From: Escherichia phage D6
Strand: one strand, 5' to 3'
Length of the DNA: 64,000 nt
Sequence record: NC_050154.1
The notes below the pieces were generated by a model that saw nothing but the letters and a program-made list of their open reading frames with translations, made no database searches and had not been told where the DNA came from. Below are positions 2,801 to 64,000 of this stretch, piece after piece. The translations under genes were made by a program, and so were the position numbers. Each line of letters begins with the position of its first letter. The first letter of the stretch is position 1.

Positions 2801-4164
2801 TAATCATCCTCCGGCGGTTCTATCGCGATATCATCATCTCCGGCGTCATACCCTGCATCAGATGCATCATAATCACCGTAAATATCAGCCGTTGCCGAAG
2901 GGTCAATATCCAGCTCTTCGTCGTTGGCCTCGAATTCTCCAGCTTTACGCTCGCCATTGCGGTCGTAATCTCCGCACCCCAATTCTTCAACAATGGTTGC
3001 CACATCCGCCCGGCGCTCTGCCAGCCATTGCGGATGGTTAGCCTGAAGCGTCGCAAACTCCCTCGCCTCTTTGTCCAGCTGTTCATCATCAACATCATTG
3101 ACGTCAGAAACAGGTGGTTCGAGAAGAGTGATAGCTTTCGCCGCGCGCGCCGCGAGGATAGCCGGGACGCTGACCCCCTGGCGCTCGATGTATTCAGCAA
3201 CACCGATATCATCCAGTTCCTCGCGCTCACGCATACGTATAGCGGCGGCGATAACTCTGGCAGCGCGTGCGTCAGCGCCAATGCGATATTCAATCTCTTT
3301 GCCACGCTGTTCGGCCTGTAGGCGTGCTAATTCGAGTTTTTCTCTGGCCTCAGCCTCTTTGAATGCTTGCTGGCGAGCGCTCTGACGAAGCTTTTCATCC
3401 CCCTGTCGCAGCTTTTGTTCGGACTGATATATAGCTGCCAACCTACTGATAAAATCATTCATGTAGTAGGCCGCGTCACTGATTAGACCGAGAAGGCGCT
3501 GCCCAGGGTGCATTCCTTCTGGCTCTTTATCGCCCAAGGCGTCTATTTCCGCCTGTAGACGTTCGGCCTCCTGATCAACAATGCTTTGATACTGAAGTGC
3601 GCGCTCTTGCGCCATTTGAATTGCTAACCGCAGGTGTTCTTCTGCGCCGTTCTTCATCATATCGCGAGCCACATTCGTAGTGGGCAATGTGGCACGCTGC
3701 ACAGCACCGCCAGGGATCATTGCTGAAGATCCCTCAATTTTTGGGGCGCTTTTATCTTCTTCGGGGATCATTTTCGCCATTTTTTCGCGCAATGATCTCC
3801 TGACAGATTCTTTTATCTCATTGTTATTATTGGTATTACTTTCATGATCCGAAGTTTTCTTTCTTGGCATACTTCGGAAAGAACCTGCACCCTGCGAATT
3901 GTCAATTTCTGTAAATTTTGTTTTTTCTGCACCCTCTTCCAGCTTTTTTGTTGCTCTTCCCGCCCGTTTTTTTTCAGGTGATTTGGTGCTTTTTTTTGTT
4001 GTCTTTACCTGCGACCGCACCTCATTTTTTTTCATATTGAGATGCTTTCTGGCTGTATTGAAGCTAAGGCCATGCTCCTCACAGTATTCCTTTACAGTGA
4101 TCCCTTTTTCTTCACGCAACGCTATAAAGCGGGCGCGGTGCTCCTCCCAATTAACCAGACTCAT
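2800..4164 (-). CDS. pacA: Terminase small / pac-recognition subunit (PacA-like)
   Basis: 454 aa; N-terminal HTH-like segment (KEYCEEHGLSFNTARKHL); acidic C-terminus; translationally coupled to pacB. Confidence 0.55.
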   Translation of the reverse strand: MSLVNWEEHRARFIALREEKGITVKEYCEEHGLSFNTARKHLNMKKNEVRSQVKTTKKSTKSPEKKRAGRATKKLEEGAEKTKFTEIDNSQGAGSFRSMPRKKTSDHESNTNNNNEIKESVRRSLREKMAKMIPEEDKSAPKIEGSSAMIPGGAVQRATLPTTNVARDMMKNGAEEHLRLAIQMAQERALQYQSIVDQEAERLQAEIDALGDKEPEGMHPGQRLLGLISDAAYYMNDFISRLAAIYQSEQKLRQGDEKLRQSARQQAFKEAEAREKLELARLQAEQRGKEIEYRIGADARAARVIAAAIRMREREELDDIGVAEYIERQGVSVPAILAARAAKAITLLEPPVSDVNDVDDEQLDKEAREFATLQANHPQWLAERRADVATIVEELGCGDYDRNGERKAGEFEANDEELDIDPSATADIYGDYDASDAGYDAGDDDIAIEPPEDD

Positions 4165-4553
4165 AAAGCAACACCACGCTTTTTAACGGCGGCATTCCAC
4201 AGCTTATTCGCCATGTCCACCAGCTCTCGTTGCTCTTTTCGCGCCTGTTCGACTGATTTCCTGCTACAGTTTTTAACCAGTAAGCTACCGTATTCAGGCG
4301 TGCGCCCGCGCACCTTGAACTGATATCCGTTCAGACCATGTAGCCAGTATTTTCGTGGATACACACGATCATCCAGCTCACAGATTGCCCTGCTTGAACG
4401 AACAAAATGACGAATGATGTTAGTTACACTTACTCGTGAAACATGGAGATGAGGGTATTTTTCTTTGGCGAGAGTGGTAATTTCAGTGACTGTCAGATAG
4501 CAGTCAGCCCTGATCATGATATCCGCAATTTCTGCGCTGCTGATTTGTTCCAT
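4161..4553 (-). CDS. Hypothetical protein in the late-promoter-activator position (Lpa-like?)
   Basis: 130 aa; overlaps pacA start (ATGA); operator-like motif 77 bp upstream, as for C1-controlled lpa in P1. Confidence 0.3.
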   Translation of the reverse strand: MEQISSAEIADIMIRADCYLTVTEITTLAKEKYPHLHVSRVSVTNIIRHFVRSSRAICELDDRVYPRKYWLHGLNGYQFKVRGRTPEYGSLLVKNCSRKSVEQARKEQRELVDMANKLWNAAVKKRGVAL

Positions 4554-19270: not shown

Positions 19271-19756
19271 ATGGCAAACATTGAACCTCGCTGGCTAATT
19301 GAAGCCCGTAAGCACATTGGCCTGACTGAAATAAAAGGCGCTAAACACAACCCTGAAATCGTTCAGTTCTGGCGCGACATCAAGCGCGGCGGAATTAAAG
19401 ACGATGAAACGCCGTGGTGCGCAGCATTTGTCGGTGCAATGCTGGAACGTGTAGGCATCCGCTCAACAAGATTTGAGTCGGCAAAATCCTATCTGGATTG
19501 GGGCGAGAAATTAGATACACCGGCATACGGATGTATCGTTGTATTTACCCGCGTAGGCGGTGGGCACGTAGGCTTCGTTGTCGGACGCCGCGCCAATGGC
19601 GATCTGCTTGTCCTGGGTGGGAACCAGGGGGATGCGGTTAATATTCGCGCATTCCCAACATCAAGAGTGTCTGGCTATCGCTGGCCTGCTGGCGAACCAC
19701 GCAATACCGCTCTGTTACCAGTCGGAGACGCAGCAACCTCAACTAATGAGGCATGA
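19271..19756 (+). CDS. NlpC/P60-CHAP-type peptidoglycan hydrolase-like protein (TIGR02594-like)
   Basis: 161 aa; catalytic-type Cys (ETPWCAAFV) and His (GGGHVGFVVG) spaced as in CHAP/NlpC-P60 enzymes. Confidence 0.5.
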   Translation: MANIEPRWLIEARKHIGLTEIKGAKHNPEIVQFWRDIKRGGIKDDETPWCAAFVGAMLERVGIRSTRFESAKSYLDWGEKLDTPAYGCIVVFTRVGGGHVGFVVGRRANGDLLVLGGNQGDAVNIRAFPTSRVSGYRWPAGEPRNTALLPVGDAATSTNEA

Positions 19757-26332: not shown

Positions 26333-27709
26333 TTACCCAACAGAGGTTGGCTCAAACATAGAAAAAATTAACCCTTTACCTTCGCCAAACTCAGTCTCAA
26401 TTTCATCAGAAACGGCAGATAAAATGCTACGCAGATCGACATCTCCGCCGCCGAACATATCGCCTAACGCTTGTTGTTGGTGAATAAGTTCATCGTTAAT
26501 TTTTTGCGCCAGTTTCTTGAAAGCGGCCCCCATTCGCTTAGCGCTTCGGTTGTTGGCAACAATAAACAGAGCAAGCGCTTCTGCTTCCGGAGTGCTATCT
26601 CCAAACAATCCACGCTGTGCGATCACCTCTTCTACTGCCTGACCGTTATCTTTTGCTTCACGAACAAGGTTAATTGCTTCCTGTAGCGCTGCAATAGCCT
26701 GTTTATCCAGACCATTCAATTGCTCTATACCGTCTACCAGTCCGGTTACCGTGTCATGGTGAACATCGCCAGACAGCGACTGCATTTGCGCAAAATCGCT
26801 GGCTGCCGTATTTAATGCGGTCAGGATATTACGCATTTCCGGATCTGGCTCTTCCGACACCAGCCGAACAAGCCTTTCATCCTTGTACGCTTTGGCAAAA
26901 ATTGCATTCTGGATGCGATCGATAAGCTGTTTCGTGGGACGCCCATCGGCAGTAAGCAAGCCTGCCGTCGCTGTATCGCCAATTTCGCGCAAAAACGCAC
27001 GAATAAACGCATCATTGGACCGCGCCAGCAGATTTCCATCATCTGAAGGATTAAATAGCGCCATGACGCTCTCAGTGAGAAATTGCGCATCCGCATACGC
27101 TTTTTCACTTGCTGCCATCTCTTGCAGATCGCTAATGTTTGAATCGCGGGCAAATTGAGCGCGGTCTACATCTGTGAGTCTTTCTCGCACCAGTACGGGC
27201 ATAGACATTTGCGAAATTTCGTCAGGATTCAGACCAAACTCTTTCGCATGGTCGATCAGGTACTGGCGATACTCATCCGCCTGTCCTTGCTCATAGGCAC
27301 GCCAGATACCCATACTCCTTCCGTTGCCGGATTCAACAACGTTGTCCGGACCAACTATCGGCGCTCCGTGGCTGCTCATACCGGAATCCATTAATTGTGC
27401 CGGGCGTAAATCGGAGGCAATACGGTTAACCTGGAGTTTGCTGGATAGCCGGGTACGATCTCGTGGTTGGAGTTCTTCCGGGAAGGCCGGGTTAATCGTA
27501 CCGTCAAGGTTGTTCGAAATGATCAGACTGCTGGCATCAACGACCTTAAAAGCCGTCTTTACCTCTGCACCTTTGCTGGTGACTACGTAGCTACTTCGCC
27601 CCAGGCGTGTTTCTTTCCTCTCTAATGAAGAAACCAGAGCAATGACGCTGTTAATATCTGCGGCCTCGGAAAGCGCAGAAGTAACTGATTTGTTCAAAAT
27701 ACACTCCAA
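26333..27709 (-). CDS. Hypothetical virion-associated protein (Ddr-like position)
   Basis: 458-aa ORF downstream of the darA-like gene. Confidence 0.3.
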   Translation of the reverse strand: MECILNKSVTSALSEAADINSVIALVSSLERKETRLGRSSYVVTSKGAEVKTAFKVVDASSLIISNNLDGTINPAFPEELQPRDRTRLSSKLQVNRIASDLRPAQLMDSGMSSHGAPIVGPDNVVESGNGRSMGIWRAYEQGQADEYRQYLIDHAKEFGLNPDEISQMSMPVLVRERLTDVDRAQFARDSNISDLQEMAASEKAYADAQFLTESVMALFNPSDDGNLLARSNDAFIRAFLREIGDTATAGLLTADGRPTKQLIDRIQNAIFAKAYKDERLVRLVSEEPDPEMRNILTALNTAASDFAQMQSLSGDVHHDTVTGLVDGIEQLNGLDKQAIAALQEAINLVREAKDNGQAVEEVIAQRGLFGDSTPEAEALALFIVANNRSAKRMGAAFKKLAQKINDELIHQQQALGDMFGGGDVDLRSILSAVSDEIETEFGEGKGLIFSMFEPTSVG

Positions 27710-30142: not shown

Positions 30143-30731
30143 GTGTCTTAGCTACTTCCTGAGACAAGGCAGCTTTAACATTACCCGTATCTTGCATTAC
30201 TTTGTCTGACTTGCTCTGGAGTTTAGACAGTTTGTCGTTAGCATTAGCGATATCTTCACGGAGTGCATCACGTGATTCTTTCGCTTCAGCTAATTTCTGA
30301 GCGTTAGATTTAACTCCCTGCCGCTTCTTATTTCCGTCATCAATATTTTTTGCTGCACGAGCAAGTTTTCGAGCTAATGACTTCTGGAAAGAAGTTGCTC
30401 CACGATTAAATAAAGCCGCAAGAGATTGCCCCAAAGCCGACATTGTTTTTACTGGCTTGAACGGTACTGTTTTACCATTCAGTTTGATCCCAGATATATC
30501 ACCGGTATCGTTAACCTGAACTTCCATTGTCTGTTCATCAATACCAATAAGGGTAAACGTGCGCGTCATGATCCCATCTTTCTTCCTGCCATTACTTGCA
30601 GGGATCACCCTCGCTATCTTGTAACCACCTTTGCTGATTTCTTTGACGAGTTTTGACAGCCCCTTTTCGTTTAACTCATCATAATTAAGAAGAACATAAT
30701 TATTTTTATTTGACATCCCAGTCTCCTTCAC
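30096..30731 (-). CDS. Hypothetical protein (Hdf-like position), coiled-coil C-terminus
   Basis: 211-aa ORF between antiholin-like and darA-like genes. Confidence 0.3.
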   Translation of the reverse strand: MKETGMSNKNNYVLLNYDELNEKGLSKLVKEISKGGYKIARVIPASNGRKKDGIMTRTFTLIGIDEQTMEVQVNDTGDISGIKLNGKTVPFKPVKTMSALGQSLAALFNRGATSFQKSLARKLARAAKNIDDGNKKRQGVKSNAQKLAEAKESRDALREDIANANDKLSKLQSKSDKVMQDTGNVKAALSQEVAKTRALKEEIARLEDEHD

Positions 30732-31152
30732 GCTTTTCGATCGTAAACTGGCGCTCTATGCAGTCATTGATAGGGAAAATGCGATAAAGCGGATTCAGTC
30801 GGCAGTTACCGTTAGTCAATGTGACTTTCAGATCCCACTTCGTTGGCTCAAGATATTTCGTATCGATGAGCAAATACTCTTCTCTCTCACCGCGTTTTGA
30901 GGCGTCAACTGGTCGCGTTTTCCCTGAAATAACCACAGATGGATTTTTCAGGTCTTGCAACCAATATTCGATTTGAGCATTGCTCACCCAGCTTCGCTTA
31001 ACACGTAGCGAAACAGGAAATGCTATAGCGGATTCTTTCACTACAGCGTCACCAATACTCAAAATCTCAACACTCTTGCGACGAAAAATGAAACGGTCAA
31101 TGATGGCAACAAATGCCATGATAAAAATGAAATAATTTCCAAAGTTACCCAT
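30706..31152 (-). CDS. Antiholin-like protein (LydB-like), one N-terminal TM segment
   Basis: 148 aa; N-terminal hydrophobic helix; directly follows the holin-like gene. Confidence 0.35.
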   Translation of the reverse strand: MGNFGNYFIFIMAFVAIIDRFIFRRKSVEILSIGDAVVKESAIAFPVSLRVKRSWVSNAQIEYWLQDLKNPSVVISGKTRPVDASKRGEREEYLLIDTKYLEPTKWDLKVTLTNGNCRLNPLYRIFPINDCIERQFTIEKREGDWDVK

Positions 31153-31478
31153 TATTTCTCTCCACCTTTTCCCCCATTCGCTATTACGCTTAAGAGATTC
31201 AAGACGTTACTAGCTCTGGACTTCAAGCCCTGTAAAATTTCACTACCGTTGTTACTGGCAATCAGAACAACGCAGAAAATGATACCTTCAGGCCATTCTT
31301 GGCTAACCGCCACCCCATACCCCGCAAGCCCGGCTGTTACCGCAGTAAACAATTCACTCGCAAGATTGAGCAGGGACGCAGAAATGCGCCCGTCTCTAAC
31401 TCCGAGAAGGAATACGCCGGTTCCACTTAGTAGGGATGTTATGACTACTACAGCCAGATTTTCATAATCTGCAAACAT
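31152..31478 (-). CDS. Holin-like protein (LydA-like), three predicted TM segments
   Basis: 108 aa with three hydrophobic helices and a charged C-terminus. Confidence 0.45.
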   Translation of the reverse strand: MFADYENLAVVVITSLLSGTGVFLLGVRDGRISASLLNLASELFTAVTAGLAGYGVAVSQEWPEGIIFCVVLIASNNGSEILQGLKSRASNVLNLLSVIANGGKGGEK

Positions 31479-31556
31479 ACCCCTCCAGAAATAACATCTA
31501 ATGCGCCACTAACTTAGTCAGTTTGTTATTTCCTTACAGGACATCTTCTAGAATCT

Positions 31557-38076: not shown

Positions 38077-38170
38077 ACGAACATAGCTCCTTCATAAGCA
38101 ATGAACCAAAGGAGAGTATGCTCAGTTTGTGATTTCCGTTGTTCTTCCCCCAAATGCGGGGGAGGAATTA

Positions 38171-40833: not shown

Positions 40834-43800
40834 TTAATCCTCAAGCAGAGCATCCAGCGACGGGTCATTAATAGTTGTGCTAGCACGTGGTCGCGGTTGC
40901 GGCTGCGATGTTTTGACAACCTTATCCGGATCGCCTTTTGTATTGTTCTTGTTCACATTCAGAAGATCGTTCAGGATAGAGCAGATGTTATCCAGCGCCT
41001 TCAACATAGCAGGATCGTTATTTATAGTGTCAGTAGTTAATGGTTGTCTTATTCCGCTTCGTGCGAGATCTGTTACAGTAGGAAGCTGTGGTGGCATAGC
41101 AAGAAAAGGTTCTTGCACGGCTGACGCAGAGCCAAATATGGCATTATTGGCTTCGTTTGATATACCTCTAATGCTATCTGCGGTTTGTTGAATACCATTA
41201 TTCAGCCAACTACCGGCGCTCCTGGTAAGCGGGCTAATAGCCCTAGCAATTGTTGAGTTCTGCCCAGTAGCCTGATAAACCAAATCATTAACAATGCCAG
41301 TGCCATCTACCCCACCAATAAGTCGTGAAACGTTATCGCCAATTGCAGGTAACACAGCAGAGCTAATACGTTTCAGACCTGTTAATGACGAGTCAAACAA
41401 AGAGCCAAGCACCCCCTTATCTTCACCATCAATTACCTTGTATCCATTGTCATAAACTGGAATCCCCCTTGAGTTTACAGGGATTTTTTCACTCTCACTT
41501 GCCGAAGAAACACCGGAAAGAAGATCCACTGAAGGCATATCGCGTTCAGCTTTTGGTCTTTTTTGTAAAGCGTCTCTTATATCAGTTACCTGGCTTGCTT
41601 TTTGAAATCCAAAAGATTTACCGGTTAAGCTGGATATCTTTTCAGTAAGAGCCTGATCCATTCCTTTCGCTTTTTCGGAAAGCGAAGATATAGAACCAAA
41701 CGAAGTCGCCGACGCAAAATCCTTAATCAGGCCAAGGCTTGTACCAGCAAGGCTGGTAGCCGCACCTCCAAATAAATTACCTACCCCGCTGTCATTTATA
41801 GCGATTAATCTCTCAAGCAGACTTGATGGAGAGCCAGTATTAACATCAACGTTCTCTGGATTAATCGGTTGCGATTGATTGCCTGTTTTTTGTGGCTTTT
41901 TGACTGCCTGGGCATATTGTGCAACCTCAATTGGCTGTTGTGTTGCTGTCGGAACGGCATTCAAAACTGGTTGAGCTGGAGATTTTCCATTAACATATTT
42001 TATCTTGCGACCAACACTATATTGCGAATCGCGGGCAATTAGCTGACCACCATTTTCTTTCTGAATTTTATTAATCCGCGCCAATGTTTCGTCAGAGAAT
42101 TGTCCCTCCCATCGACCAGTATTTGTGTTAAATGCCCCAAGAGCATTCTTTATGAACTCATTGTTAACCGCCGGGTTTCCACCTTCTTTCGTCGCTATTG
42201 CACGAACTAATTGCGTCATAACCTCTGGGTTGCTGACGTCTATTTTTTCATTAGGCGAGACGCCAAGATATTTGCTGACGTTATCAATATATTGATTAGT
42301 ATTGTTCTCCTTTGGGGGTGCCCATTTGGAAATAATACTGGATACCGTCTGTAGCTTCTGATACCCAGCAGCGGCGCTGGTGCCGTTGTAATAGCTTGAC
42401 ACCTGGTTTGCCAGCGCCCTGATCCCTTCTTCAGGCGTGTTAAATCGCGCAAAACGTTGTTCACCTTTTGCATTTGGTGCTTCCAGCGTCGCCCCTTCCT
42501 GATTAGCGAAAACAAGGTTGCCGAGATTATTATTCCGGTAATTGCGGTTTTTGGCGTTGCTGCCACCAATATTCAGATCCGCTGCAATGGTGTTGCTGGT
42601 AGGGGCATTAAATTCAGCCGGGGAAGTATACCCGTGCTCACCAACACCATCTTCACCATCACGCCCGCCTTGTAGCTGCTCACCTAAAGAATGAATCGCA
42701 TCGACAGTTTTTTTGGTGCCGTCTTCAACAGCTTTTTTTACTTGTTTTGTGTTTTCGTCAGTGGATAAAAATGTATCCTTAAGGCTACCAAAAACAGATT
42801 TTGTGATATCTACCGCGCCGTTAACACCACGAGCAATATCTCCGGTATCAAAATTCTGAAGTTTTTCACCTGCTCTTTCAAATCCTAGCGCAGAAATTCC
42901 TTTCCCTATCAAGTTTGTTGCGCCCGACACCAAGCCCCCCATATCGAGCACATTAGCTGTTGCGTAAGCCGTTTTTTGCTGTTCGGATACAGCATCATCG
43001 TCACTTAAACCAAAGGCTGCCTTTTGCGCCTCTGTATCTGTGTAACCATCTATGGCGTCATATCCAGCCATTGCCAGCGAACCGATGATAGGGACCGCTC
43101 TTGCCGCAGTGGATGCTGCTGATTTAACTCCTATTTTTGCAGCACTTTTGAGGGCTACAGATTCAGTTTTTTTCTTTGCAATGGCTTCGCCGGTTTTAAT
43201 GGTGGCATCTTCAGCCACAACACCAGCTGACTTCACGGCCTTAGCAGTATTTTTTGTTTCCTTTGCAATCCCCTTTGATGTATCGCTGATAGTGCTTACA
43301 TCTTTGGGTTTGCTGATCTCATTTTTAACTACTTTTGCTGCTCCGACACCAGTGCCAGCTGCAGCGCTACCGGCAGCAACTTTTTCGCCAACGGAGAGTG
43401 CTTTTTTCCCAAGATTGCGGCCTTTCCTTTTCGATTTATTCCGTTTATTTTTTCCCGTTTGATCACCAATATTGATTTTATTTCTTCTGCTTGCTCGATT
43501 TTTCCAGAGATCACTTAAGCCGAACTTATTTCCAGAAGACACTGATTTCCGAAGCTTAACTATCTCGTCAGAAACATTTTCCAGACCATCAATTATTTTG
43601 TTGTCATTGGTCTGAAGGATTTTGGTTTGCTCTTCTACTGCTTGTGCGGATTTTGTCTCAACAGCGTTATTGAACGCTTTTGCAGATGTTGCTTTTTGAG
43701 AATTCACCGCCGCCGGATAAGTAATTACTGGTGATATCGCTTTCGAGGTTGATGTTTCTTTTTTCCCCTTTTCTACCCATTCTTTAAGAGATTCTGCTTT

Positions 43801-44616
43801 ACCTGTGATCTCTTTAGTTATGTCGTACATGCCTCGAGCCGCCATCCATAACGGCCCACCAGCACCGACACCAGCTGCATTTGTTAAAGACTCTTCACTG
43901 GAAGACTGATTGCCATCTACCCCCATAATGGAACCTAGCTTTCTGAGAAAGCCAGCTTGTAATTTTGCGTCGGCTTTACGTGCGTTCTGCAATTCTTTTT
44001 TTCTGGCTATATCCTCATTGCTTTTTTGGGATACAAAACGTCCATTACTATCCCGCAGCGGGCCTTTTAGACTTTGGGGGGATTGTGGTTCAAGAGGGGC
44101 TGAATTAGCCGCTACCGGTATAAAACCGTCCGATTTTCGGATGGTCTGACGTGATTGCACGGAGCGAACACTTTCTGGTGTGTTCGTTGCAACGATAGCG
44201 CGGTCCACGGTTTGGTTTATCGGTGCCCTTTCCTTTTTAGCAGGGAGACGTTTTTTATATGGGTTAGTTTGGGCATCTCTAACGCTATCAGATGTACTTT
44301 GCTCGTAGTCTTTACGCCTGCGTGATAGTCTGTTGCTAACTCTGCCTTGCTTTTCGTCCTGTTGAGTTATGGTGCCTACCCCAGAAAGAATGGCGTCTTT
44401 TACCTCAGCAAGAGCTTTAAGTTCGTTTGTGCTCGCCTCCTGAATAGCGTCAATTATTGCGATACGGTCTTTATTCTCTTTCAAAATAACCTCTCTTTTA
44501 CCAGCGCGATCAACGTTTCCCGGCTTGAGCTTTGTATTTTTCTTCCAGGGCTTTTGACATATGGAGTGCTCGCCATTGCGGTAATTGTTCAACGTCGCTA
44601 ACGGGCTGATATCCAT
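40834..44616 (-). CDS. sit: Tape-measure / structural injection transglycosylase (Sit-like)
   Basis: 1260 aa; Ala/Gly/Ser-rich repetitive body; central region resembles lytic transglycosylase domains; position before baseplate genes. Confidence 0.55.
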   Translation of the reverse strand: MDISPLATLNNYRNGEHSICQKPWKKNTKLKPGNVDRAGKREVILKENKDRIAIIDAIQEASTNELKALAEVKDAILSGVGTITQQDEKQGRVSNRLSRRRKDYEQSTSDSVRDAQTNPYKKRLPAKKERAPINQTVDRAIVATNTPESVRSVQSRQTIRKSDGFIPVAANSAPLEPQSPQSLKGPLRDSNGRFVSQKSNEDIARKKELQNARKADAKLQAGFLRKLGSIMGVDGNQSSSEESLTNAAGVGAGGPLWMAARGMYDITKEITGKAESLKEWVEKGKKETSTSKAISPVITYPAAVNSQKATSAKAFNNAVETKSAQAVEEQTKILQTNDNKIIDGLENVSDEIVKLRKSVSSGNKFGLSDLWKNRASRRNKINIGDQTGKNKRNKSKRKGRNLGKKALSVGEKVAAGSAAAGTGVGAAKVVKNEISKPKDVSTISDTSKGIAKETKNTAKAVKSAGVVAEDATIKTGEAIAKKKTESVALKSAAKIGVKSAASTAARAVPIIGSLAMAGYDAIDGYTDTEAQKAAFGLSDDDAVSEQQKTAYATANVLDMGGLVSGATNLIGKGISALGFERAGEKLQNFDTGDIARGVNGAVDITKSVFGSLKDTFLSTDENTKQVKKAVEDGTKKTVDAIHSLGEQLQGGRDGEDGVGEHGYTSPAEFNAPTSNTIAADLNIGGSNAKNRNYRNNNLGNLVFANQEGATLEAPNAKGEQRFARFNTPEEGIRALANQVSSYYNGTSAAAGYQKLQTVSSIISKWAPPKENNTNQYIDNVSKYLGVSPNEKIDVSNPEVMTQLVRAIATKEGGNPAVNNEFIKNALGAFNTNTGRWEGQFSDETLARINKIQKENGGQLIARDSQYSVGRKIKYVNGKSPAQPVLNAVPTATQQPIEVAQYAQAVKKPQKTGNQSQPINPENVDVNTGSPSSLLERLIAINDSGVGNLFGGAATSLAGTSLGLIKDFASATSFGSISSLSEKAKGMDQALTEKISSLTGKSFGFQKASQVTDIRDALQKRPKAERDMPSVDLLSGVSSASESEKIPVNSRGIPVYDNGYKVIDGEDKGVLGSLFDSSLTGLKRISSAVLPAIGDNVSRLIGGVDGTGIVNDLVYQATGQNSTIARAISPLTRSAGSWLNNGIQQTADSIRGISNEANNAIFGSASAVQEPFLAMPPQLPTVTDLARSGIRQPLTTDTINNDPAMLKALDNICSILNDLLNVNKNNTKGDPDKVVKTSQPQPRPRASTTINDPSLDALLED

Positions 44617-54074: not shown

Positions 54075-54207
54075 GGTTAAGCCCTAAATTCGGGCGCGGC
54101 GTGAAGGTTCTTTTGACGGGCTAACAATACCTACTTTGTGATTTAGTCAATAGGTTTAGTAAAATAAAATCTATTAACACTCATGTTGTTATGTGATTTA
54201 ATTTTGG

Positions 54208-54641: not shown

Positions 54642-55100
54642 ATGAGTCACGTTAACCCATCAAAAACACAATATCGCTTAATGCTGGCGATCGCGTCAGC
54701 TATACCAACCAGCCTGAATCCCCCGGCAGGCTATCCCGCTGTTGTTGATGATTGTTTTCAGTATTACGGAGAAGACATCCTGAGCCAGTCAAAAGCGCTC
54801 AAGCAGTTATGTAAGGCAGGTATTCTTCACTGTATCGGAGATCCGGACGATTTTGTTGTTATGCTGGCGGATCGTGACTCTTTTCTACTGTCCTGGAAAG
54901 CTGGTGCGCGCGAAGCACGTTTGGGGAATGGTATTGGTTACATAGACTATAGCGATTGTCCGCTGGCATTTGCTGGTGGATATATGCATTGGCATGAGCG
55001 AAATAGGGGCCGTCAGCGTCAGTATCGTTTGAGTGACTTTAACGTCTGTCACGGTTTCGAAGAAGCTGACAGCCAGGACATCTGGCTTCAGGAGCCTTGA
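54642..55100 (+). CDS. Hypothetical protein
   Basis: 152-aa ORF 17 bp downstream of the previous gene. Confidence 0.35.
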   Translation: MSHVNPSKTQYRLMLAIASAIPTSLNPPAGYPAVVDDCFQYYGEDILSQSKALKQLCKAGILHCIGDPDDFVVMLADRDSFLLSWKAGAREARLGNGIGYIDYSDCPLAFAGGYMHWHERNRGRQRQYRLSDFNVCHGFEEADSQDIWLQEP

Positions 55101-55420
55101 TCCCCCTTCCCTTCCCAAATCTCCCTGTTTCTTTGGTTATTCAGTGCGTTTCGTTGGTTGCATTCGTCGATCGTGCTGAATAACTGTTCAGCGTATGTCG
55201 GATACTTGTTTAACAGCACTGGCGTGTCTTCTGGCACTAAACAAGGGGAGTAATCAATCAGATTTGCCTGCGGCTTGCTGGTGGCTTCTACGGTAATTTT
55301 CACTGGCACGCTGGTTGATGGCTTTTGCCCGTTCCCGCTGCATCCTGATAACGTCATCAGGCACACGCACATCGTTAATCCCAGCACGGCGTAACGCATT
55401 TTCAAGGCGAGTGATTTCAT
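55088..55420 (-). CDS. Outer-membrane spanin lipoprotein (Rz1-like), overlapping the i-spanin gene out of frame
   Basis: Lipobox LSGC after a hydrophobic signal; Pro-rich mature region with Cys; RBS GAGAGGAAAG before ATG at 55420. Confidence 0.55.
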   Translation of the reverse strand: MKSLALKMRYAVLGLTMCVCLMTLSGCSGNGQKPSTSVPVKITVEATSKPQANLIDYSPCLVPEDTPVLLNKYPTYAEQLFSTIDECNQRNALNNQRNREIWEGKGDQGS

Positions 55421-55727
55421 TCTGGCTTTCCTCTCGTTGTTTGATTAGGTTGGCATTCAGTTCTGCTGTTTTGCGCTGGTACTCCTTTTCCAGTGCTTTA
55501 ATTCTTTCGTTTTCGGTCAGCATGGCTGAGCGAGCGTTCTCACTTAACTGTAATGCGGTAGAAAGCGTGTTGTTCGTGCTTTCCAGTTGTGATTTTGAGT
55601 CTTCAAGCGATCGGACATACCTGATGTGTTCGATAACTGCCGTCGTTGTTCGGTAAATTCCAGAAATGGCTAAAAGCGCAATTACAATCAAAATTATCTT
55701 TTTCAAAACCATCCTCTTCAGGTTCAT
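55254..55727 (-). CDS. Inner-membrane spanin (Rz-like)
   Basis: 157 aa; N-terminal TM helix followed by coiled-coil periplasmic domain; contains the Rz1-like frame. Confidence 0.55.
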   Translation of the reverse strand: MNLKRMVLKKIILIVIALLAISGIYRTTTAVIEHIRYVRSLEDSKSQLESTNNTLSTALQLSENARSAMLTENERIKALEKEYQRKTAELNANLIKQREESQNEITRLENALRRAGINDVRVPDDVIRMQRERAKAINQRASENYRRSHQQAAGKSD

Positions 55728-55782
55728 TTTCGGTGTTAAACATGTACCAAATTACATCCTTTTGTGTGCCTAAGTGGTGTTG

Positions 55783-56589
55783 CTATGGTTCCTTTTTGGT
55801 GTTCTTTTGGAGCGCATCGATAACGCCTTGTGGCATGATTAAACTGATTGCCGGACTCATTACTGCATCATCCAGTAGAGAACCAGTTAACGTGATGGCG
55901 ACAGCGTTCTCTAAACCTTTGGTTGCCTGAGTGGTTGACGTTTTAATGCGACCTGTAAGGGCTACGACACTCTCACTTGCTGAGTTAATTTCGGAGAGTA
56001 AAGCTTCGGCGGCTGTCACTGCTTCCCGTAAAGCATCAATTTCATCCTGAGTAATGACTGGAGCCTGAGCGCCCCCAGCACCACCCTGTCCACCATTGCT
56101 ATCACCACCACCAGCACTTCCGGCAGCTTCAATTTTTGCGTTAATGGCGTTCATGGCGGTTTTCAGAGCATCAAGTTTTAGCGCCGTCAATGCGTCCGTT
56201 AGAGATTGCGGAATGGAAACATTCCCCATTCCCTCAACAAGGGCGAAAGCAGGTATGGGGGTCAGCTCGTTACCTTTTGCGTAGCATTCCCAGCCAATCT
56301 TCATCTGTAACAGCTCTGATGGCTTGGTGTATGGGGAAAGAGAATCAGCCAGTAATGAAGACGCTTTGCTGGCCTCATTGAGCTGTTCAGAAAAGCCAAG
56401 CAATTGAGTAGTCCAGGCCGAAACAGAATCAGGATAGGTTTTATCGGCGTGAACTATTCCCTGTATGGCGCTGGCGAGCGATGAGGCTTTTACAGAAGCT
56501 GCTCGGCTTATGGTTATAGATTCTGGTGTAGAGATACCGGCATCTGACAGAATTTTGAAGGCTTTAACTTCACCTATTGAATCAAGCAT
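55783..56589 (-). CDS. Hypothetical Ala/Gly-rich protein
   Basis: 268 aa from ATG at 56589 (overlaps PAAR stop, TAATG); the track's longer ORF uses an upstream alternative start. Confidence 0.35.
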   Translation of the reverse strand: MLDSIGEVKAFKILSDAGISTPESITISRAASVKASSLASAIQGIVHADKTYPDSVSAWTTQLLGFSEQLNEASKASSLLADSLSPYTKPSELLQMKIGWECYAKGNELTPIPAFALVEGMGNVSIPQSLTDALTALKLDALKTAMNAINAKIEAAGSAGGGDSNGGQGGAGGAQAPVITQDEIDALREAVTAAEALLSEINSASESVVALTGRIKTSTTQATKGLENAVAITLTGSLLDDAVMSPAISLIMPQGVIDALQKNTKKEP

Positions 56590-56873
56590 TATGCAACCTG
56601 AAAAATATCCTCGCCGTTGGCGATAACAGAACCACAAGAAAGCAGATCGCCTACACAGACAACTCCCTTTCCACCTATCGAAAACCATGCTCGCGTCGAT
56701 ACAGCTGCCCCTGGATGTGCACTGTTACCGTCAGTGTGACTGGGAAACATGGCACCATCTACAACAACTGGCTTACCGTTAACGGTGAACCAGGGAACGG
56801 TTTCAGCTACCAGTCGCGGCGGAAATCCTCCGTGACCAGAACAAAGGGTGTCGCTGGTGGCTATTGCGCTCAT
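56589..56873 (-). CDS. PAAR-domain spike-tip protein
   Basis: 94 aa; CSGHGGFPP and VCVGDLLSCGS pattern typical of PAAR; strong RBS AGGAGG. Confidence 0.7.
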   Translation of the reverse strand: MSAIATSDTLCSGHGGFPPRLVAETVPWFTVNGKPVVVDGAMFPSHTDGNSAHPGAAVSTRAWFSIGGKGVVCVGDLLSCGSVIANGEDIFQVA

Positions 56874-56957
56874 TCTTCACCTCCTGGTTATCCTTCTATT
56901 GTCATCACTTTGTTATTTCGTCATTCAAACGGAGAGTTAAATTTCGGAATATTTTTG

Positions 56958-57116
56958 TATTCTCAATTCGCTCTCAAATTTATCTCACTATCAGACCATC
57001 ATTCGGTGGGTGATTAAGATATTCTCAAAATAAACTCAACAAGCGCCCTTTTTTATCTCGTTTGGTGTGGATTTTTGGGGGCTTCTCTTTTAAAATTACA
57101 TTTTGATTCTCAAATG
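56958..57116 (+). repeat. parC-like centromere region with repeated TTCTCAA(A) motifs
   Basis: tattctcaattcg, gctctcaaattt, atattctcaaaat, tgattctcaaatg upstream of parM. Confidence 0.4.
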
Positions 57117-57139
57117 TGTCTCAGAAGTGGAGCAAGAAG

Positions 57140-58096
57140 ATGCGCATTTTTATCGATGATGGTTCAACCAATATCAAAATGCTGTGGGAGCACGACGGGG
57201 AAACTCGCACTCACATCAGCCCTAACAGCTTTAAGCGCGGATGGTCAGCAACATTTGGTGCGGGCAAGCCGTTTAACTATGTCATTGACGACGAAAAGTA
57301 TTCATACGACTTGATATCGCCAGATGTTCTGCCGACGAATAATGTGGAATGGCAATACAGCCCGCTTAACGTCCTGGCTGTTCACCATGCCCTGCTGACA
57401 AGCGGTATTGAGCCGCAGGAAGTAGAAATTGTGGTCACGCTGCCTCTGGCAGAGTTTTACGACGACGACGCGCAATACAATCTCGATAACATCGAGCGCA
57501 AGAAAGCCAGTCTTATGCGCCCCGTCACGCTGAATAAAGGCAATGTATTCACTATTAAGAAAGTTACGGTACGCCCGGAGTCTATCCCGGCGGGAATTAG
57601 CCTGTGCGACAATCTGAACCCTGCCCACTCTGTTCTTATCGTCGATTTGGGTGGAACTACCCTTGATGTTTCAATGGTCGCTGGACAAATGACGGCAGTT
57701 TCCCGTGTTTTTGGCGATTCGAATCTTGGTGTATCACTGGTCACCAGGGAAGTAAGGCAAGCACTTGCAAGGGCCAATACCGAAACGTCAAATTACAATG
57801 TTGATCAGCTCATTATTAACCGCCACGATGAAGATTATCTGAACGACAATATCAATGACCCATCAGCGATTGGTGATGTGAAAAAGGCCATTGCCGCAAG
57901 CATTGACCGTCTGCGTACCCGCGTTCTTGATGTGATTGGCGACTTTAAAGGATATACGCATGTCATGGTGATCGGTGGTGGCGCACCGCTGGTGGCAGAT
58001 GCAATTCGCGAGCAAGTTAATATTCGTGATGACCGTTTCTTCGTGGCGGATGACCCGCAACTTGCTCTTGTTCATGGCCTGAAAGCAATCGGTTAA
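57140..58096 (+). CDS. parM: Actin-like plasmid segregation ATPase ParM (StbA)
   Basis: MRIFIDDGSTNIK ... ISPNSFKRGW ... VAVHHALLTSG closely parallels plasmid R1 ParM; ATG at 57140 with GGAG RBS. Confidence 0.85.
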   Translation: MRIFIDDGSTNIKMLWEHDGETRTHISPNSFKRGWSATFGAGKPFNYVIDDEKYSYDLISPDVLPTNNVEWQYSPLNVLAVHHALLTSGIEPQEVEIVVTLPLAEFYDDDAQYNLDNIERKKASLMRPVTLNKGNVFTIKKVTVRPESIPAGISLCDNLNPAHSVLIVDLGGTTLDVSMVAGQMTAVSRVFGDSNLGVSLVTREVRQALARANTETSNYNVDQLIINRHDEDYLNDNINDPSAIGDVKKAIAASIDRLRTRVLDVIGDFKGYTHVMVIGGGAPLVADAIREQVNIRDDRFFVADDPQLALVHGLKAIG

Positions 58097-58102
58097 CGAG
58101 GT

Positions 58103-58447
58103 ATGTCCATGTCTCAGGAACGTAAGAAAGTGATGATTTATCTTCGCCCAGAGGCTTATGCCAATGAAAAGGCGGCGAGCGAGAAGATAAAAAAACATAG
58201 CGATATGGCAAGAACTGCATTGTTGGCAGGGCTTGCGCTGGGAGAAGTCGATAGCAGGCTTCCAGGATTACTGGCTTCCCTGCTGACCGAAGACAATAAC
58301 CCGGAGCTGATCCGAAAAATGCTGGCATCCTTCTTGGAACTACCAGCTGCGGTTGAGGAGCGCCCTGCCTCCATTGAGCCAGTGAAGGAGCAATTTGTTG
58401 CCAAAAGCGCGTCGGCGCGCAATCTGGCTGACTCTCTACCTGATTGA
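58103..58447 (+). CDS. parR: ParR (StbB) centromere-binding adaptor
   Basis: 114 aa; RTALLAGLAL matches R1 ParR RAALTAGLAL; directly downstream of parM. Confidence 0.7.
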   Translation: MSMSQERKKVMIYLRPEAYANEKAASEKIKKHSDMARTALLAGLALGEVDSRLPGLLASLLTEDNNPELIRKMLASFLELPAAVEERPASIEPVKEQFVAKSASARNLADSLPD

Positions 58448-58570: not shown

Positions 58571-58734
58571 TTGGGGCTGCTTTCGTGTTAAATAGGATGC
58601 AATATAAGGTGTATTTGGTCTGATTGATGTTATACTTTGCCAAACATTCATGACTCCATTATAGAGCCTGTCCCGCATCAAAAAGGCTCTTATCTGGAAC
58701 CGTTTTGATACCAAAATCACACCGAGGAACGGAT

Positions 58735-59376
58735 ATGATTATATTGGTAGTCAGCCAAAAAGGTGGCTGTGGAAAATCAACCACAAGCGTAAACATCTGT
58801 GCGGAGCTTGCCCGCGAAAATAAGGATGTAGTGTTACTAGATGCAGACAAGCAAGGAACAGCTGCCCGCTGGGCAGCTGACCGTAACACGGCAGAGGTTT
58901 CTCCTGTAATTCATTGTGTCCAGAAGTTTGGTAATATTCGAGAAACACTTCTCGATCTGGATAAGCGTTATGAATTTGTAGTTGTTGATACAGCCGGGCG
59001 CGATAGCAAAGAGATGCGTACAGGCATAACCGCTGCAGATATTGTGTTGGTCCCATTCAGACCATCTCAACCAGATTTAGACACGCTGGCACACTTTGTT
59101 GAAGTGTTTGAAGAGGCTTTGGACCTGATGCCTAATCCTAGCATCAAGGCGTTCGCAGTCTTAACAATGGCCCCATCCAATCCGGTTGTGAATGAAACCA
59201 ATGAGGCCAAAGAGTACCTGGCTGAATATCCGCAACTGAAGTTGCTGAAAACCATCATTCGTGATCGTAAGGTTTACCGCGATTGCATGGCTGAAGGGAA
59301 GGGCGTTGTTGAGATGGACAACGGGAAAGCTAAAGGTGAAATCCAGATGTTGGTTAAGGAGTTATTAAGTGATTAA
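58735..59376 (+). CDS. Small ParA-family partition ATPase (type Ib)
   Basis: Walker A KGGCGKST; 213 aa from ATG at 58735 with GAGGAA RBS. Confidence 0.75.
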   Translation: MIILVVSQKGGCGKSTTSVNICAELARENKDVVLLDADKQGTAARWAADRNTAEVSPVIHCVQKFGNIRETLLDLDKRYEFVVVDTAGRDSKEMRTGITAADIVLVPFRPSQPDLDTLAHFVEVFEEALDLMPNPSIKAFAVLTMAPSNPVVNETNEAKEYLAEYPQLKLLKTIIRDRKVYRDCMAEGKGVVEMDNGKAKGEIQMLVKELLSD

Positions 59377-59656
59377 GCCTCGTAAATCGGTAAAAGCCCC
59401 CGAAGTAAAAGACCCTGATCTTGAACGCCGAATTGAGGATTTTGCCAGTAAGGCTGATTTGGTGCCGGGTGAGCAACCAGAAGACAACAAAGTGCTCGAT
59501 AAGGACGCTCCACGTGATTTTAAATCTATTCGTGTTGGTTTCAATGAATACGAGTACCAAGTACTTGATGCGTTAAGTAAAAAGCATAATCGCAGCAAAT
59601 TGAATATGATCCGCCATGCTATCCTCATGTTAGCGGAGTCTGAGGAAGCAAAATAA
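59369..59656 (+). CDS. ParG-like centromere-binding protein (ribbon-helix-helix C-terminus)
   Basis: 95 aa; GTG start with AAGGAG RBS overlapping the parA stop; C-terminal IRVGFNEYEYQVLDALSKKHNRSKLNMIRHAI is RHH-like. Confidence 0.5.
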   Translation: MIKPRKSVKAPEVKDPDLERRIEDFASKADLVPGEQPEDNKVLDKDAPRDFKSIRVGFNEYEYQVLDALSKKHNRSKLNMIRHAILMLAESEEAK

Positions 59657-63213: not shown

Positions 63214-64000
63214 CGCCAATGGCCTCCACCAGCGCGTTAAACAGTGCAGATAATTCGCCCGTAAAGAGCACGAAATCAGCATCAAATCGTTGTGCTACAT
63301 CCTCCCGGTCGATATCGTCGTTCTGGTCATAGAGATCATCACAGAATGTCAGGGCTTTGATACTCATATCATCGTTGACTCTGAACGACGCGCGGTCCAT
63401 CCAGTTAATTGCAACGGTCGTAGCTACTTTCCCCGCCTCAATGTGAGACATAATCTCGTCGGACTGTAGATCAACTTTGTTGCAGCGAACGGCACCACCA
63501 TTATCGAGCAGACCCTTTAATGTGGCGTCTTCACCTGCTGTAAATCCGGCAGGGAAGCCGTTTTTAAACCACTCGGTCATTGTAATTTCCAGCGGTTCGC
63601 GTGGTGTGAATGGAATGACAGGCAGGCTGCCGAGCGATTTTCGCAATAAAGCCAGCTGGTCCTCTGCCTTTTTGGCGCTGCTTGCCTCAACGAATACCAG
63701 ATGGTTTCTGCGGTCGATCAGGATTTTGGCGAGTGATTTTCTCGTGAAAGCACGAGGAAGAAGAGAGTGAAGCACTTCATCCTTCAGCGAATCTTTTTCG
63801 GTCTTCTTCAGCTTTCTGTCTTGCTCTTCTTCAAGTGTCAGGATTTTTTTCTGTAACTCTTCTTTGAGCACTTGAGAAGGTAGGATTTTTTCCTCTCGTT
63901 TATGCTGTATCAGAAGAAAACCCTGGTATTCATGGGTGAGGTTGTCACCAAGAACGGAGGTCCAACCAGCTTTAGCCATATCCTGAGAACCGCATGGGGT
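63197..64000 (-). CDS. rdgC: RdgC-like recombination-associated protein (5' end beyond window)
   Basis: EEKILPS ... [21 protein letters not shown] ... [20 protein letters not shown] matches E. coli RdgC over its C-terminal ~260 aa; P1 carries a homologue (hrdC) next to dmt. Confidence 0.85.

What the first reader, a model, noticed from the sequence alone, without database searches (positions are those of the whole stretch)
55088..56873. PAAR protein, unknown 268-aa protein and an Rz/Rz1-type spanin pair in one operon
A PAAR spike-tip gene is start/stop coupled to an Ala/Gly-rich unknown protein and followed by an i-spanin whose gene contains the o-spanin frame (lipobox LSGC). Linking spike-tip and lysis functions in one transcript is unusual, and the spanins are about 24 kb away from the holin/antiholin genes.
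Basis: partly seen in the sequence, partly recalled or inferred. Interest (0 to 1): 0.35.

Follow-up and report, generated by a model that had tools for sequence, protein, structure and literature searches.

The report
P1-type spike-tip plus spanin late operon
This is the D6-group version of a four-gene late operon long annotated in phage P1 (upfC-upfB-ppfA-mlp: tail spike tip, tip-attached protein, and two outer-membrane lysis proteins), so the odd-looking mix of tail and lysis genes is an inherited feature of this phage lineage and not a new system.

Summary
The four minus-strand genes are real and lie exactly at 55088-56873. They are a 94-aa PAAR protein, a 268-aa protein whose ATG overlaps the PAAR stop (TAATG), a 157-aa i-spanin and a 110-aa o-spanin with lipobox LSGC. 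One detail is wrong: the o-spanin gene starts inside the i-spanin gene but runs 166 nt past its stop. That is the overlapped (P2 lysB/lysC-like) architecture, not the embedded lambda Rz/Rz1 one.

The window is a roughly 90-kb P1-related phage-plasmid of the D6 subgroup (P1g2). The cassette matches P1 upfC-upfB-ppfA-mlp gene for gene and in the same order: 57%, 27%, about 20% (not significant) and 31% identity. The "unknown" 268-aa protein is therefore a UpfB homologue. A 2026 cryo-EM study assigns P1 UpfB to a "tripod" of three trimers on the UpfC spike tip, though only by fitting a predicted model into medium-resolution density. P1 lysis genes are already known to be scattered over unlinked operons.

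New here is a candidate late-promoter box, AAATMACA-N7-NANNNT. It has 9 sites in the window against 0.46 expected, all upstream of late genes. One lies 25 nt before the PAAR ATG, and the box recurs before the PAAR gene in all distant relatives examined. Tail and lysis genes most likely share a transcript simply because both are late genes.

Low novelty, low interest.

The parts
56898..56918 (-). Candidate late promoter: box AAATAACA (56918-56911), 7-nt spacer, -10-like GACAAT (56903-56898), 25 nt upstream of the PAAR ATG
   Evidence: The pattern AAATMACA-N8-A-NNN-T has 9 sites in the window against 0.46 expected. All 9 are intergenic and point at a gene start 18-52 nt downstream (coordinates). 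The same box lies 43-50 nt before the PAAR ATG in L004-L008. No second site lies inside the cassette. Function is inferred, not shown.
56880..56885 (-). Shine-Dalgarno AGGAGG, 6 nt before the PAAR ATG
   Evidence: Read directly from the sequence.
56589..56873 (-). PAAR spike-tip protein, 94 aa, orthologue of P1 UpfC and T4 gp5.4
   Evidence: Pfam PAAR_motif 28.5 bits against a cut-off of 27. PHROG 281 at E 1.7e-28. 57% identity to P1 UpfC. PDB 9vyi_A (UpfC) at E 7e-35 and 5iv5 (gp5.4) at E 1.8e-4.
55783..56589 (-). UpfB-like protein, 268 aa, probable spike-tip-associated 'tripod' protein. Its ATG shares one base with the PAAR stop (TAATG).
   Evidence: 27% identity over the full length to P1 UpfB, E 3e-23. 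PHROG 1559 at E 1.4e-110. All-alpha AlphaFold2 model, pLDDT 80. The gene is always coupled to the PAAR gene in P1g1 and P1g2 relatives. The role is taken from P1 cryo-EM (PMC12810830).
55254..55727 (-). i-spanin, 157 aa (152 aa if it starts at Met6, 55712): N-terminal transmembrane helix followed by a periplasmic two-helix domain
   Evidence: PHROG 214 'Rz-like spanin' at E 7.6e-16. Hydrophobic segment at residues 6-25. AlphaFold2 model: helix 2-114, linker, helix 124-153. The C-terminal AG..R.P..IRMQRE motif is shared with relatives and with P1 PpfA.
55088..55420 (-). o-spanin lipoprotein precursor, 110 aa, in the +1 frame. It overlaps the i-spanin gene by 167 nt and extends 166 nt beyond it.
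   Evidence: Lipobox LSGC with Cys27 and Ser at +2. 31% identity to P1 Mlp, E 6e-9. PHROG 456 at E 1.2e-5 and PHROG 17138 at E 2.7e-52. GAGG lies 8-11 nt before the ATG. Conserved in L004-L007 and in P1.
30706..31478 (-). Unlinked part of the lysis system: LydA-type holin (31152..31478) and LydB-type protein (30706..31152), behind their own late-type box at 31511-31531
   Evidence: PHROG 1527 holin at E 8e-39 and PHROG 1898 'lysis determining protein' at E 3e-69. Promoter motif.
19271..19756 (+). Candidate endolysin (TIGR02594-family protein), a third unlinked lysis locus, behind a late-type box at 19215-19235
   Evidence: PHROG 1259 tail lysozyme at E 8e-47, plus weaker endolysin PHROGs. RefSeq annotation. 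Promoter motif. The endolysin role is inferred.
4161..4553 (-). Lpa-like late transcription activator, the probable reader of the late box
   Evidence: PHROG 1704 'Lpa-like transcriptional activator' at E 2.8e-60. It lies next to the pacA-like gene, as in P1. Binding to the box is inferred.

Best explanation
The region is the D6-subgroup (P1g2) orthologue of the phage P1 upfC-upfB-ppfA-mlp late operon.

One late transcript probably starts at the box and -10 element at 56918-56898, which an Lpa-like activator is inferred to read.

1. It first encodes a 94-aa PAAR protein. By homology to P1 UpfC and T4 gp5.4, this protein caps the trimeric tail spike as a single sharp tip.
2. Translationally coupled to it is a 268-aa all-helical UpfB homologue. 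By analogy with the P1 cryo-EM assignment, it assembles as trimers hanging on that tip.
3. [quoted passage not shown] Once the holin (31.2 kb) and endolysin (probably 19.3 kb) have acted, the spanin fuses the inner and outer membranes as the last step of lysis.

The tail and lysis genes share a transcript because both are needed late. No functional interaction between them is required.

Shown here: the ORFs, their homologies, the conserved gene order, the coupling, and the enrichment and conservation of the promoter-like motif.
Inferred: the transcript, virion location, oligomeric state and lysis function.
For: Homology, gene for gene and in the same order as P1: PAAR/UpfC 57%, UpfB 27% at E 3e-23, o-spanin/Mlp 31% at E 6e-9. 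The i-spanin has the same domain plan and shares a C-terminal motif with PpfA. The P1 gene order comes from its GenBank record.

Lineage: the window shares identical RefSeq proteins with NZ_CP066033, which PMC10879196 names as a member of the P1g2 (D6) group. P1-type Lpa, PmgB/C/G, Hdf and LydA/B families are present.

P1 literature:
- UpfC was built into cryo-EM density as a monomeric spike tip, and UpfB was assigned as three trimers on it (PMC12810830).
- ppfA and mlp are regarded as the spanin genes, in an operon unlinked to the other lysis genes (PMC9025707).

Operon structure:
- PAAR and UpfB-like are coupled through TAATG.
- Only a 55-nt gap precedes the i-spanin.
- No terminator-like site lies between the genes, apart from one weak chance-level match inside the PAAR gene.
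- No internal late-type box is present.
- In relatives L005 and L006 the UpfB stop overlaps the i-spanin start.

Promoter motif: 9 sites against 0.46 expected, and no shuffle out of 100 reached 9. The box is conserved upstream of the PAAR gene in five loci whose surrounding intergenic sequence and neighbouring genes differ.

Spanin features: transmembrane helix, lipobox, +1 frame, helix-linker-helix model.
Against: - No transcript data exist for this element.
- P1's own annotation shows no late promoter before upfC. It predicts sigma-70 promoters inside upfB for ppfA, so the spanins may have an additional or separate promoter.
- The -10 element here (GACAAT) is the weakest of the nine sites.
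- The i-spanin start has no good Shine-Dalgarno sequence.
- UpfB's virion role in P1 rests on an AlphaFold3 trimer fitted into medium-resolution density. The P1 virion mass-spectrometry paper never mentions UpfB in its main text.
- Spanin function has not been tested experimentally, even in P1.
- Window i-spanin against P1 PpfA is not significant by BLASTP (E 0.11).
Confidence: 0.85

Rival explanations
1. The 268-aa UpfB-like protein is not a virion component. Instead it is an accessory envelope or lysis factor that works with the downstream spanins, and the PAAR gene is merely the upstream neighbour.
For: The P1 virion LC-MS/MS paper does not mention UpfB in its main text. The P1 tripod assignment is a model fitted into medium-resolution density. 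In relatives L005 and L006 the UpfB stop overlaps the i-spanin start. Deleting upfB in P1 gives no plaque defect.
Against: The protein has no signal peptide or transmembrane segment (maximum 17-residue hydropathy 1.25; soluble all-alpha model), so it would stay in the cytoplasm. In all enterobacterial relatives its ATG is coupled to the PAAR stop. In distant Vibrionaceae relatives it sits beside the capsid gene with no spanin next to it. Spanins elsewhere need no third partner (PMC6139136).
Confidence: 0.08
2. The four genes form a functional envelope-crossing module. The tip complex (PAAR plus UpfB) and the spanins interact or are co-dosed, for example by using the same outer-membrane target on entry and on exit. 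That would explain why the cassette stays intact while its flanks change.
For: The cassette is intact in P1 and in five P1g2-type loci even though the neighbouring genes differ (ParM, ParA, Rep, toxin-antitoxin). The genes are tightly packed with overlaps.
Against: The expected copy numbers differ greatly: 1 and 9 copies per virion in the P1 model, against spanins made for the whole cell envelope (established knowledge). The linkage is lost in the Vibrionaceae relatives. Shared late timing explains co-transcription without any interaction. No known spanin needs a tail protein.
Confidence: 0.04
3. The o-spanin frame is a chance ORF and the lysis reading is wrong.
For: The RefSeq annotation does not call it. 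The Pfam hit is below threshold (O_Spanin_T7, 16.3 bits against 25).
Against: The frame is open and has the same lipobox (LSGC) in P1 and in four relatives at 33-55% identity. Cys60, the PED motif and the YP.Y motif are conserved. It matches P1 Mlp at E 6e-9 and PHROG 17138 at E 2.7e-52, and it has its own ribosome-binding site. o-spanins are commonly missed by gene callers: 196 of 528 systems (PMC6139136).
Confidence: 0.01

Closest known systems
Phage P1 upfC-upfB-ppfA-mlp operon (GenBank AF234172, positions 63354-65063)
   Same: Same four genes in the same order on one strand. The PAAR proteins have the same length (94 aa) and the o-spanin precursors too (110 aa). Both have overlapped spanins and an LSGC lipobox. 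Both lie beside plasmid-maintenance genes and far from lydA/lydB and the endolysin gene.
   Different: Sequences are diverged (57%, 27%, about 20% and 31% identity). P1 has upfA and repA downstream, whereas here there are convergent unknown genes downstream and parM upstream. P1 has no annotated late promoter before upfC and uses the box AAGTNACTT, which this element does not use.
T4 gp5.4 and T6SS PAAR spike-tip proteins
   Same: PAAR fold family. A small single-domain protein of about 95 aa that caps a trimeric beta-helical spike.
   Different: Sequence similarity is only distant (E 1.8e-4 to gp5.4). It scores far below NCBIfam's T6SS PAAR cut-off (34 against 124 bits). No effector extension is present.
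P2 LysB/LysC, the overlapped class of two-component spanins (Kongari et al. 2018)
   Same: The o-spanin starts in the +1 frame inside the i-spanin gene and ends beyond it. The components are a type II i-spanin and a lipoprotein o-spanin.
   Different: The genes are not in a lysis cassette with the holin and endolysin. The i-spanin has no cysteine, so only the o-spanin has periplasmic cysteines.
Lambda Rz/Rz1 (embedded spanins)
   Same: Same protein topologies and the same presumed membrane-fusion function.
   Different: Here the o-spanin gene is not contained within the i-spanin gene. The proteins are larger (mature o-spanin 84 aa against 40 aa in lambda). The genes are unlinked to the holin gene.

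Membership tests
PAAR spike-tip proteins (Pfam PF05488; P1 UpfC, T4 gp5.4) | Matches the PAAR_motif profile above Pfam's gathering score | tested here: met
   28.5 bits against a cut-off of 27, E 1.8e-6.
PAAR spike-tip proteins (Pfam PF05488; P1 UpfC, T4 gp5.4) | Sequence homology to spike-tip proteins whose structure has been solved in place | tested here: met
   PDB 9vyi_A (P1 UpfC) at E 7e-35 and 5iv5_ZA (T4 gp5.4) at E 1.8e-4.
PAAR spike-tip proteins (Pfam PF05488; P1 UpfC, T4 gp5.4) | Sits as one copy on the tip of the trimeric spike in the virion | not testable with these tools
   Needs virion proteomics or cryo-EM. Inferred from P1 (PMC12810830).
UpfB ('tripod') family (PHROG 1559) | Full-length sequence homology to P1 UpfB | tested here: met
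   27% identity over 263 residues, E 3e-23. PHROG 1559 at E 1.4e-110 over the whole profile.
UpfB ('tripod') family (PHROG 1559) | Gene lies directly after the PAAR gene and is coupled to it | tested here: met
   TAATG overlap in the window. Start/stop overlap in L004-L008 and adjacency in P1. Not met in the distant Vibrionaceae members.
UpfB ('tripod') family (PHROG 1559) | Forms trimers attached to the spike tip | not testable with these tools
   Only a monomer could be modelled, and there is no solved structure to compare with. In P1 the assignment itself rests on a fitted prediction.
Two-component spanin, i-spanin subunit | N-terminal transmembrane helix (type II) followed by a helical periplasmic domain with a linker | tested here: met
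   Hydropathy 2.53 at residues 6-22. Model has helix 2-114, linker 115-123 and helix 124-153. PHROG 214 at E 7.6e-16.
Two-component spanin, o-spanin subunit | Lipoprotein signal with lipobox Cys and no Asp at +2; a small periplasmic domain | tested here: met
   L24-S25-G26-C27-S28. The mature protein is 84 aa. The lipobox is invariant in six sequences.
Two-component spanin, embedded (lambda Rz/Rz1) architecture | o-spanin gene lies wholly inside the i-spanin gene | tested here: not met
   The o-spanin extends 166 nt beyond the i-spanin stop.
Two-component spanin, overlapped (P2 lysB/lysC) architecture | o-spanin starts inside the i-spanin gene, out of frame, and ends beyond it | tested here: met
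   +1 frame with a 167-nt overlap. Definition from PMC6139136.
Two-component spanin (function) | Needed for outer-membrane disruption at lysis; the two subunits form a complex | not testable with these tools
   Not verified experimentally even for P1 ppfA/mlp (PMC9025707).
P1 Lpa-dependent late promoters | 9-bp inverted repeat AAGTNACTT about 4 nt upstream of a -10 hexamer | tested here: not met
   The window has 1 site without a -10 element, which is chance level. A different box, AAATMACA, takes the equivalent place: 9 sites against 0.46 expected. An Lpa-like gene is present.

The most novel reading that the evidence does not exclude
The PAAR, UpfB-like and spanin genes are kept together because they act together as an envelope-crossing module. 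For example, the UpfB-like protein could have a second role with the spanins, or the tip complex and the spanins could share an outer-membrane target. This would explain why the cassette stays intact and tightly overlapped while its plasmid-backbone neighbours are reshuffled.
Probability: 0.05. Interest if true: 0.5.

Novelty: new member of a known kind. Interest (0 to 1): 0.15.

Why it matters
The result mainly improves annotation. In about 120 PLSDB plasmids, and on plasmids in 101 of 5426 complete E. coli genomes, these genes are labelled 'hypothetical', and the PAAR gene is sometimes labelled 'alanine racemase'. The o-spanin is not called at all. They can now be named UpfC-like spike tip, UpfB-like tip-associated protein, i-spanin and o-spanin.

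The strict PAAR/UpfB coupling across diverged relatives gives independent genomic support for the recent, still tentative, structural assignment of UpfB to the P1 spike tip.

The candidate late-promoter box suggests that the D6 subgroup's Lpa-like activator reads a different sequence from P1's. That would be useful for engineering these phage-plasmids.

None of this changes current understanding of tails or lysis.

Tried and rejected
- Megablast of the region against the phage collection found nothing. Phage D6 itself (MF356679 / NC_050154) is not in the collections. Assignment to the D6 group therefore rests on NZ_CP066033 and PMC10879196.
- The Lobocka 2004 P1 genome paper and the Gilcrease and Casjens 2018 D6 paper are not held. 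I could not check whether the late box or this cassette is already described for D6.
- P1's late box AAGTNACTT is absent here.
- The sigma-70 and terminator scan gave only chance-level hits. No terminator lies after the o-spanin, and folding of the downstream RNA shows no U-tract hairpin.
- The 268-aa protein has no Pfam, NCBIfam or PADLOC family.
- It has no PDB relative by sequence; the only hits are Gly-rich linker artefacts.
- It has no PDB relative by fold: best E 0.03, TM below 0.3, all generic helical bundles.
- In BFVD the only matches are weak ones to DUF7217 phage proteins (E 3e-3 to 1.3, TM 0.3-0.6). No family member hits DUF7217 by sequence and no paper mentions it. I kept this as a lead only.
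- The search for related loci with the wide alignment failed because it has no conserved stretch. Single distant members found nothing in viral contigs or in phage records.
- The defence-system reading was rejected: there are no PADLOC hits beyond coiled-coil noise.
- The chance-ORF reading for the o-spanin was rejected on conservation.
Full report
**What is in the sequence**

On the minus strand between 55088 and 56873 there are four genes.

- A 94-aa ORF (56589..56873) follows a strong ribosome-binding site: AGGAGG, then 6 nt, then ATG.
- A 268-aa ORF (55783..56589) begins with an ATG that shares one base with the preceding TAA (TAATG). It has no ribosome-binding site of its own.
- After a 55-nt gap comes a 157-aa ORF (55254..55727).
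- A 110-aa ORF (55088..55420) lies in the +1 frame. It starts inside the 157-aa gene, behind its own GAGG.

The 94-aa protein passes Pfam's PAAR_motif threshold (28.5 against 27 bits).

The 157-aa protein has an N-terminal hydrophobic helix at residues 6-25. It matches Rz-like spanin PHROGs (E 7.6e-16). Its model is the classical Rz plan: helix 2-114, a short linker, then helix 124-153 (pLDDT 87.6).

The 110-aa protein has a lipoprotein signal ending in L-S-G-C27 with Ser at +2. It matches o-spanin PHROGs.

The o-spanin shares 167 nt with the i-spanin gene and then continues 166 nt past its stop. By the definitions of Kongari et al. 2018 (PMC6139136), this is the overlapped architecture, which is the commonest class (228 of 528 systems). 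It is not the embedded lambda Rz/Rz1 arrangement.

**What the element is**

The region has no near match among deposited phage genomes. It is 80-99.9% identical to 121 non-mobilizable plasmids of about 90 kb from E. coli, Salmonella and Shigella. It also occurs, always on plasmids, in 101 of 5426 complete E. coli genomes.

Annotation of one such plasmid and PHROG scans of the window show a P1-type gene set:
- pacA/pacB-like terminase genes next to an Lpa-like activator;
- portal, a 565-aa capsid protein and sheath;
- PmgB-, PmgC- and PmgG-like proteins;
- an invertible tail-fibre segment;
- a LydA holin, LydB and an Hdf-like protein.

The maintenance genes, however, are RepB and ParM.

The window shares identical RefSeq proteins with NZ_CP066033. 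PMC10879196 names that plasmid, together with phage D6, as a member of the P1 subgroup 2. The window is therefore a D6-group phage-plasmid. D6 itself is not in the collections available here.

**Comparison with P1**

P1 carries upfC, upfB, ppfA and mlp in the same order on one strand.

| Window protein | P1 protein | Result |
|---|---|---|
| PAAR | UpfC | 57% identical over all 94 residues |
| 268-aa protein | UpfB | 27% identical over its full length, E 3e-23 |
| o-spanin | Mlp | 31% identical, E 6e-9, same LSGC lipobox |
| i-spanin | PpfA | not significant (E 0.11); same plan and a shared C-terminal AG..R.P...R..RE motif |

P1's spanins are overlapped in the same way (mlp 63354-63686, ppfA 63520-63942).

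The literature already covers the roles.

- UpfC was predicted to be the T4 gp5.4-like spike tip, and its deletion has no plaque phenotype (PMC9024508).
- It has since been built into cryo-EM density as a monomer on the gp5 spike trimer (PMC12810830). The deposited chain, 9vyi_A, matches the window protein at E 7e-35.
- The same study assigns UpfB to a 'tripod' of three trimers anchored on the tip. However, it does so by fitting an AlphaFold3 trimer into medium-resolution density.
- The main text of the P1 virion mass-spectrometry paper does not mention UpfB, so this role is plausible but not secure.
- ppfA and mlp are regarded as the P1 spanin genes, 'in yet another unlinked operon', and are not verified experimentally (PMC9025707). 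That paper swaps the i- and o- labels; Mlp is the lipoprotein.
- All four P1 genes score as non-essential (PMC10695390).

**The 268-aa protein**

An alignment of 25 homologues shows three parts:
- a conserved N-terminal domain with an invariant LLQMKIGWEC..KGN core;
- a hypervariable Gly/Ala/Pro-rich linker;
- a conserved C-terminal region (NAVAITLT...AIS.IMP.GVI.AL).

The AlphaFold2 model is confident and all-helical (pLDDT 80, pTM 0.72), with the linker disordered. There is no signal peptide or transmembrane segment.

It has no relative in the PDB by sequence or by fold and no Pfam family. It has only weak structural resemblance to DUF7217 proteins of large myophages.

The family is small. 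A profile search of 1.84 billion representatives found 74 clusters, nearly all 240-265 aa long.

**Conservation of the cassette**

In four relatives whose UpfB-like protein is only 38-49% identical to the window's (L004-L007; L008 is a short second contig that carries the same UpfB-like protein as L007), the order PAAR, UpfB-like, i-spanin, o-spanin is kept.

- The PAAR stop and UpfB start overlap in every case.
- The UpfB stop and i-spanin start overlap in L005 and L006.
- The spanins are always overlapped and carry an LSGC lipobox.
- The flanking genes differ from locus to locus: ParM, ParA, Rep or toxin-antitoxin genes.
- One metagenomic relative (L004) has an in-frame stop in its i-spanin.

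In much more distant Vibrionaceae elements, the UpfB-like gene sits directly upstream of the capsid gene with no spanin beside it. There the PAAR gene is either 1.5 kb upstream behind four small genes (L011) or not found in the 10.8-kb locus fetched (L010).

The spanin linkage is thus a trait of the enterobacterial P1/D6 lineage and not a general rule.

**How it is probably transcribed**

P1's late box (AAGTGACTT in LP23) is absent from the window.

Comparing the regions upstream of genes revealed AAAT[C/A]ACA followed, 7 nt later, by a -10-like hexamer. The pattern AAATMACA-N8-A-NNN-T occurs 9 times, against 0.46 expected, and none of 100 shuffles reached 9.

All nine sites are intergenic and point at a gene start 18-52 nt downstream (coordinates). 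The genes they precede are:
- a large SNF2-type gene;
- the endolysin candidate;
- the portal gene;
- a head-region gene of unknown function (26333..27709);
- the holin operon;
- a tail-fibre assembly gene;
- the operon that begins with the PmgB-like gene and the 1260-aa gene behind it (40834..44616);
- the capsid gene;
- the PAAR gene, at 56898-56918.

The same box lies 43-50 nt before the PAAR ATG in all five relative loci. The surrounding intergenic sequence is otherwise unrelated in L004-L007 (L008 duplicates L007). In L007 the box also lies before the capsid gene.

No further site lies inside the cassette. No convincing terminator lies within or after it. The o-spanin's 3' end overlaps a convergent plus-strand ORF by 13 nt.

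I infer a single late transcript read by the Lpa-like activator (4161..4553). This has not been shown. P1's annotation predicts sigma-70 promoters for ppfA inside upfB, so an extra spanin promoter cannot be excluded.

**Verdict**

The gene identities and the operon reading are right. The 'unknown' protein is a UpfB homologue. The mixture of spike-tip and lysis genes, and the scattering of lysis genes over three loci (19.3, 31 and 55 kb), are inherited P1-lineage traits already in the literature.

The simplest explanation for co-transcription is shared late timing.

The element is a new member of a known kind. The modest additions are:
- better annotation for a widespread plasmid family;
- genomic support for a PAAR-UpfB partnership;
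- a candidate D6-group late-promoter box distinct from P1's. I could not check whether the D6 genome paper already describes it.

Noticed in passing
window 19171-19191(-), 19215-19235(+), 25221-25241(-), 27727-27747(-), 31511-31531(-), 38115-38135(-), 45491-45511(-), 54124-54144(-), 56898-56918(-): A candidate late-promoter box, AAAT[C/A]ACA followed 7 nt later by a -10-like hexamer, occurs 9 times against 0.46 expected. Every site lies upstream of a late-type gene. It differs from P1's Lpa box AAGTNACTT, which is absent here. An Lpa-like activator gene lies at 4161..4553(-). I could not check whether this is already described for phage D6.
   Followed up: partly
window 56972-56987, 57023-57038, 57108-57123: Three direct repeats, TCTCAAAnnnnnCTCA, lie in the 242-nt gap between the PAAR gene and the divergent parM gene. 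They are probably the parC centromere and ParR-binding sites of the ParMR partition system, and they sit just upstream of the PAAR late-promoter candidate.
   Followed up: no
window 59925-61586(+): A full-length glutamine-tRNA ligase gene (glnS, 553 aa) is carried by this phage-plasmid, according to the RefSeq annotation of the near-identical plasmid NZ_CP122910.1.
   Followed up: no
window 57116-58447(+) and 58705-59656(+): Two partition systems lie side by side: ParM with a small ParR-like protein, then a ParA-type AAA ATPase with a 95-aa partner.
   Followed up: no
window 54642-55100(+) against 55088-55420(-): The o-spanin gene and a convergent 152-aa gene of unknown function (PHROG 8101) overlap by 13 nt at their 3' ends. 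No terminator-like structure lies between them.
   Followed up: partly
GenBank plasmid records, e.g. CP082672.1, CP123682.1, CP057742.1 (region equivalent to window 56589-56873): Several submitter-annotated records label a gene in this four-gene region 'alanine racemase' exactly where RefSeq records say 'PAAR domain-containing protein'. That looks like a mis-annotation of the PAAR gene. No record seen annotates the o-spanin.
   Followed up: no
L004 4762-5283: In one metagenomic relative (JGI 3300053491, 84-kb contig) the i-spanin reading frame is broken by an in-frame stop after codon 99, while the o-spanin stays intact. This is either a pseudogene or an assembly error.
   Followed up: partly
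L010 5001-7680 and L011 3168-7690: In Photobacterium-type P1-like elements, the UpfB-like gene lies directly upstream of the 565-568-aa capsid gene. The PAAR gene is detached (L011) or was not found in the locus (L010), and there are no spanins nearby.
   Followed up: partly
window 55783-56589(-), model m500a09d07f76: The UpfB-like model weakly resembles DUF7217 proteins of Pectobacterium phage Wc4, Serratia phage 3M and E. coli phage FEC14 (Foldseek probability 1.0 for the best hits, TM 0.3-0.6, E 3e-3 to 1.3). There is no sequence-level match. This may hint at tip-associated proteins in other large myophages.
   Followed up: partly
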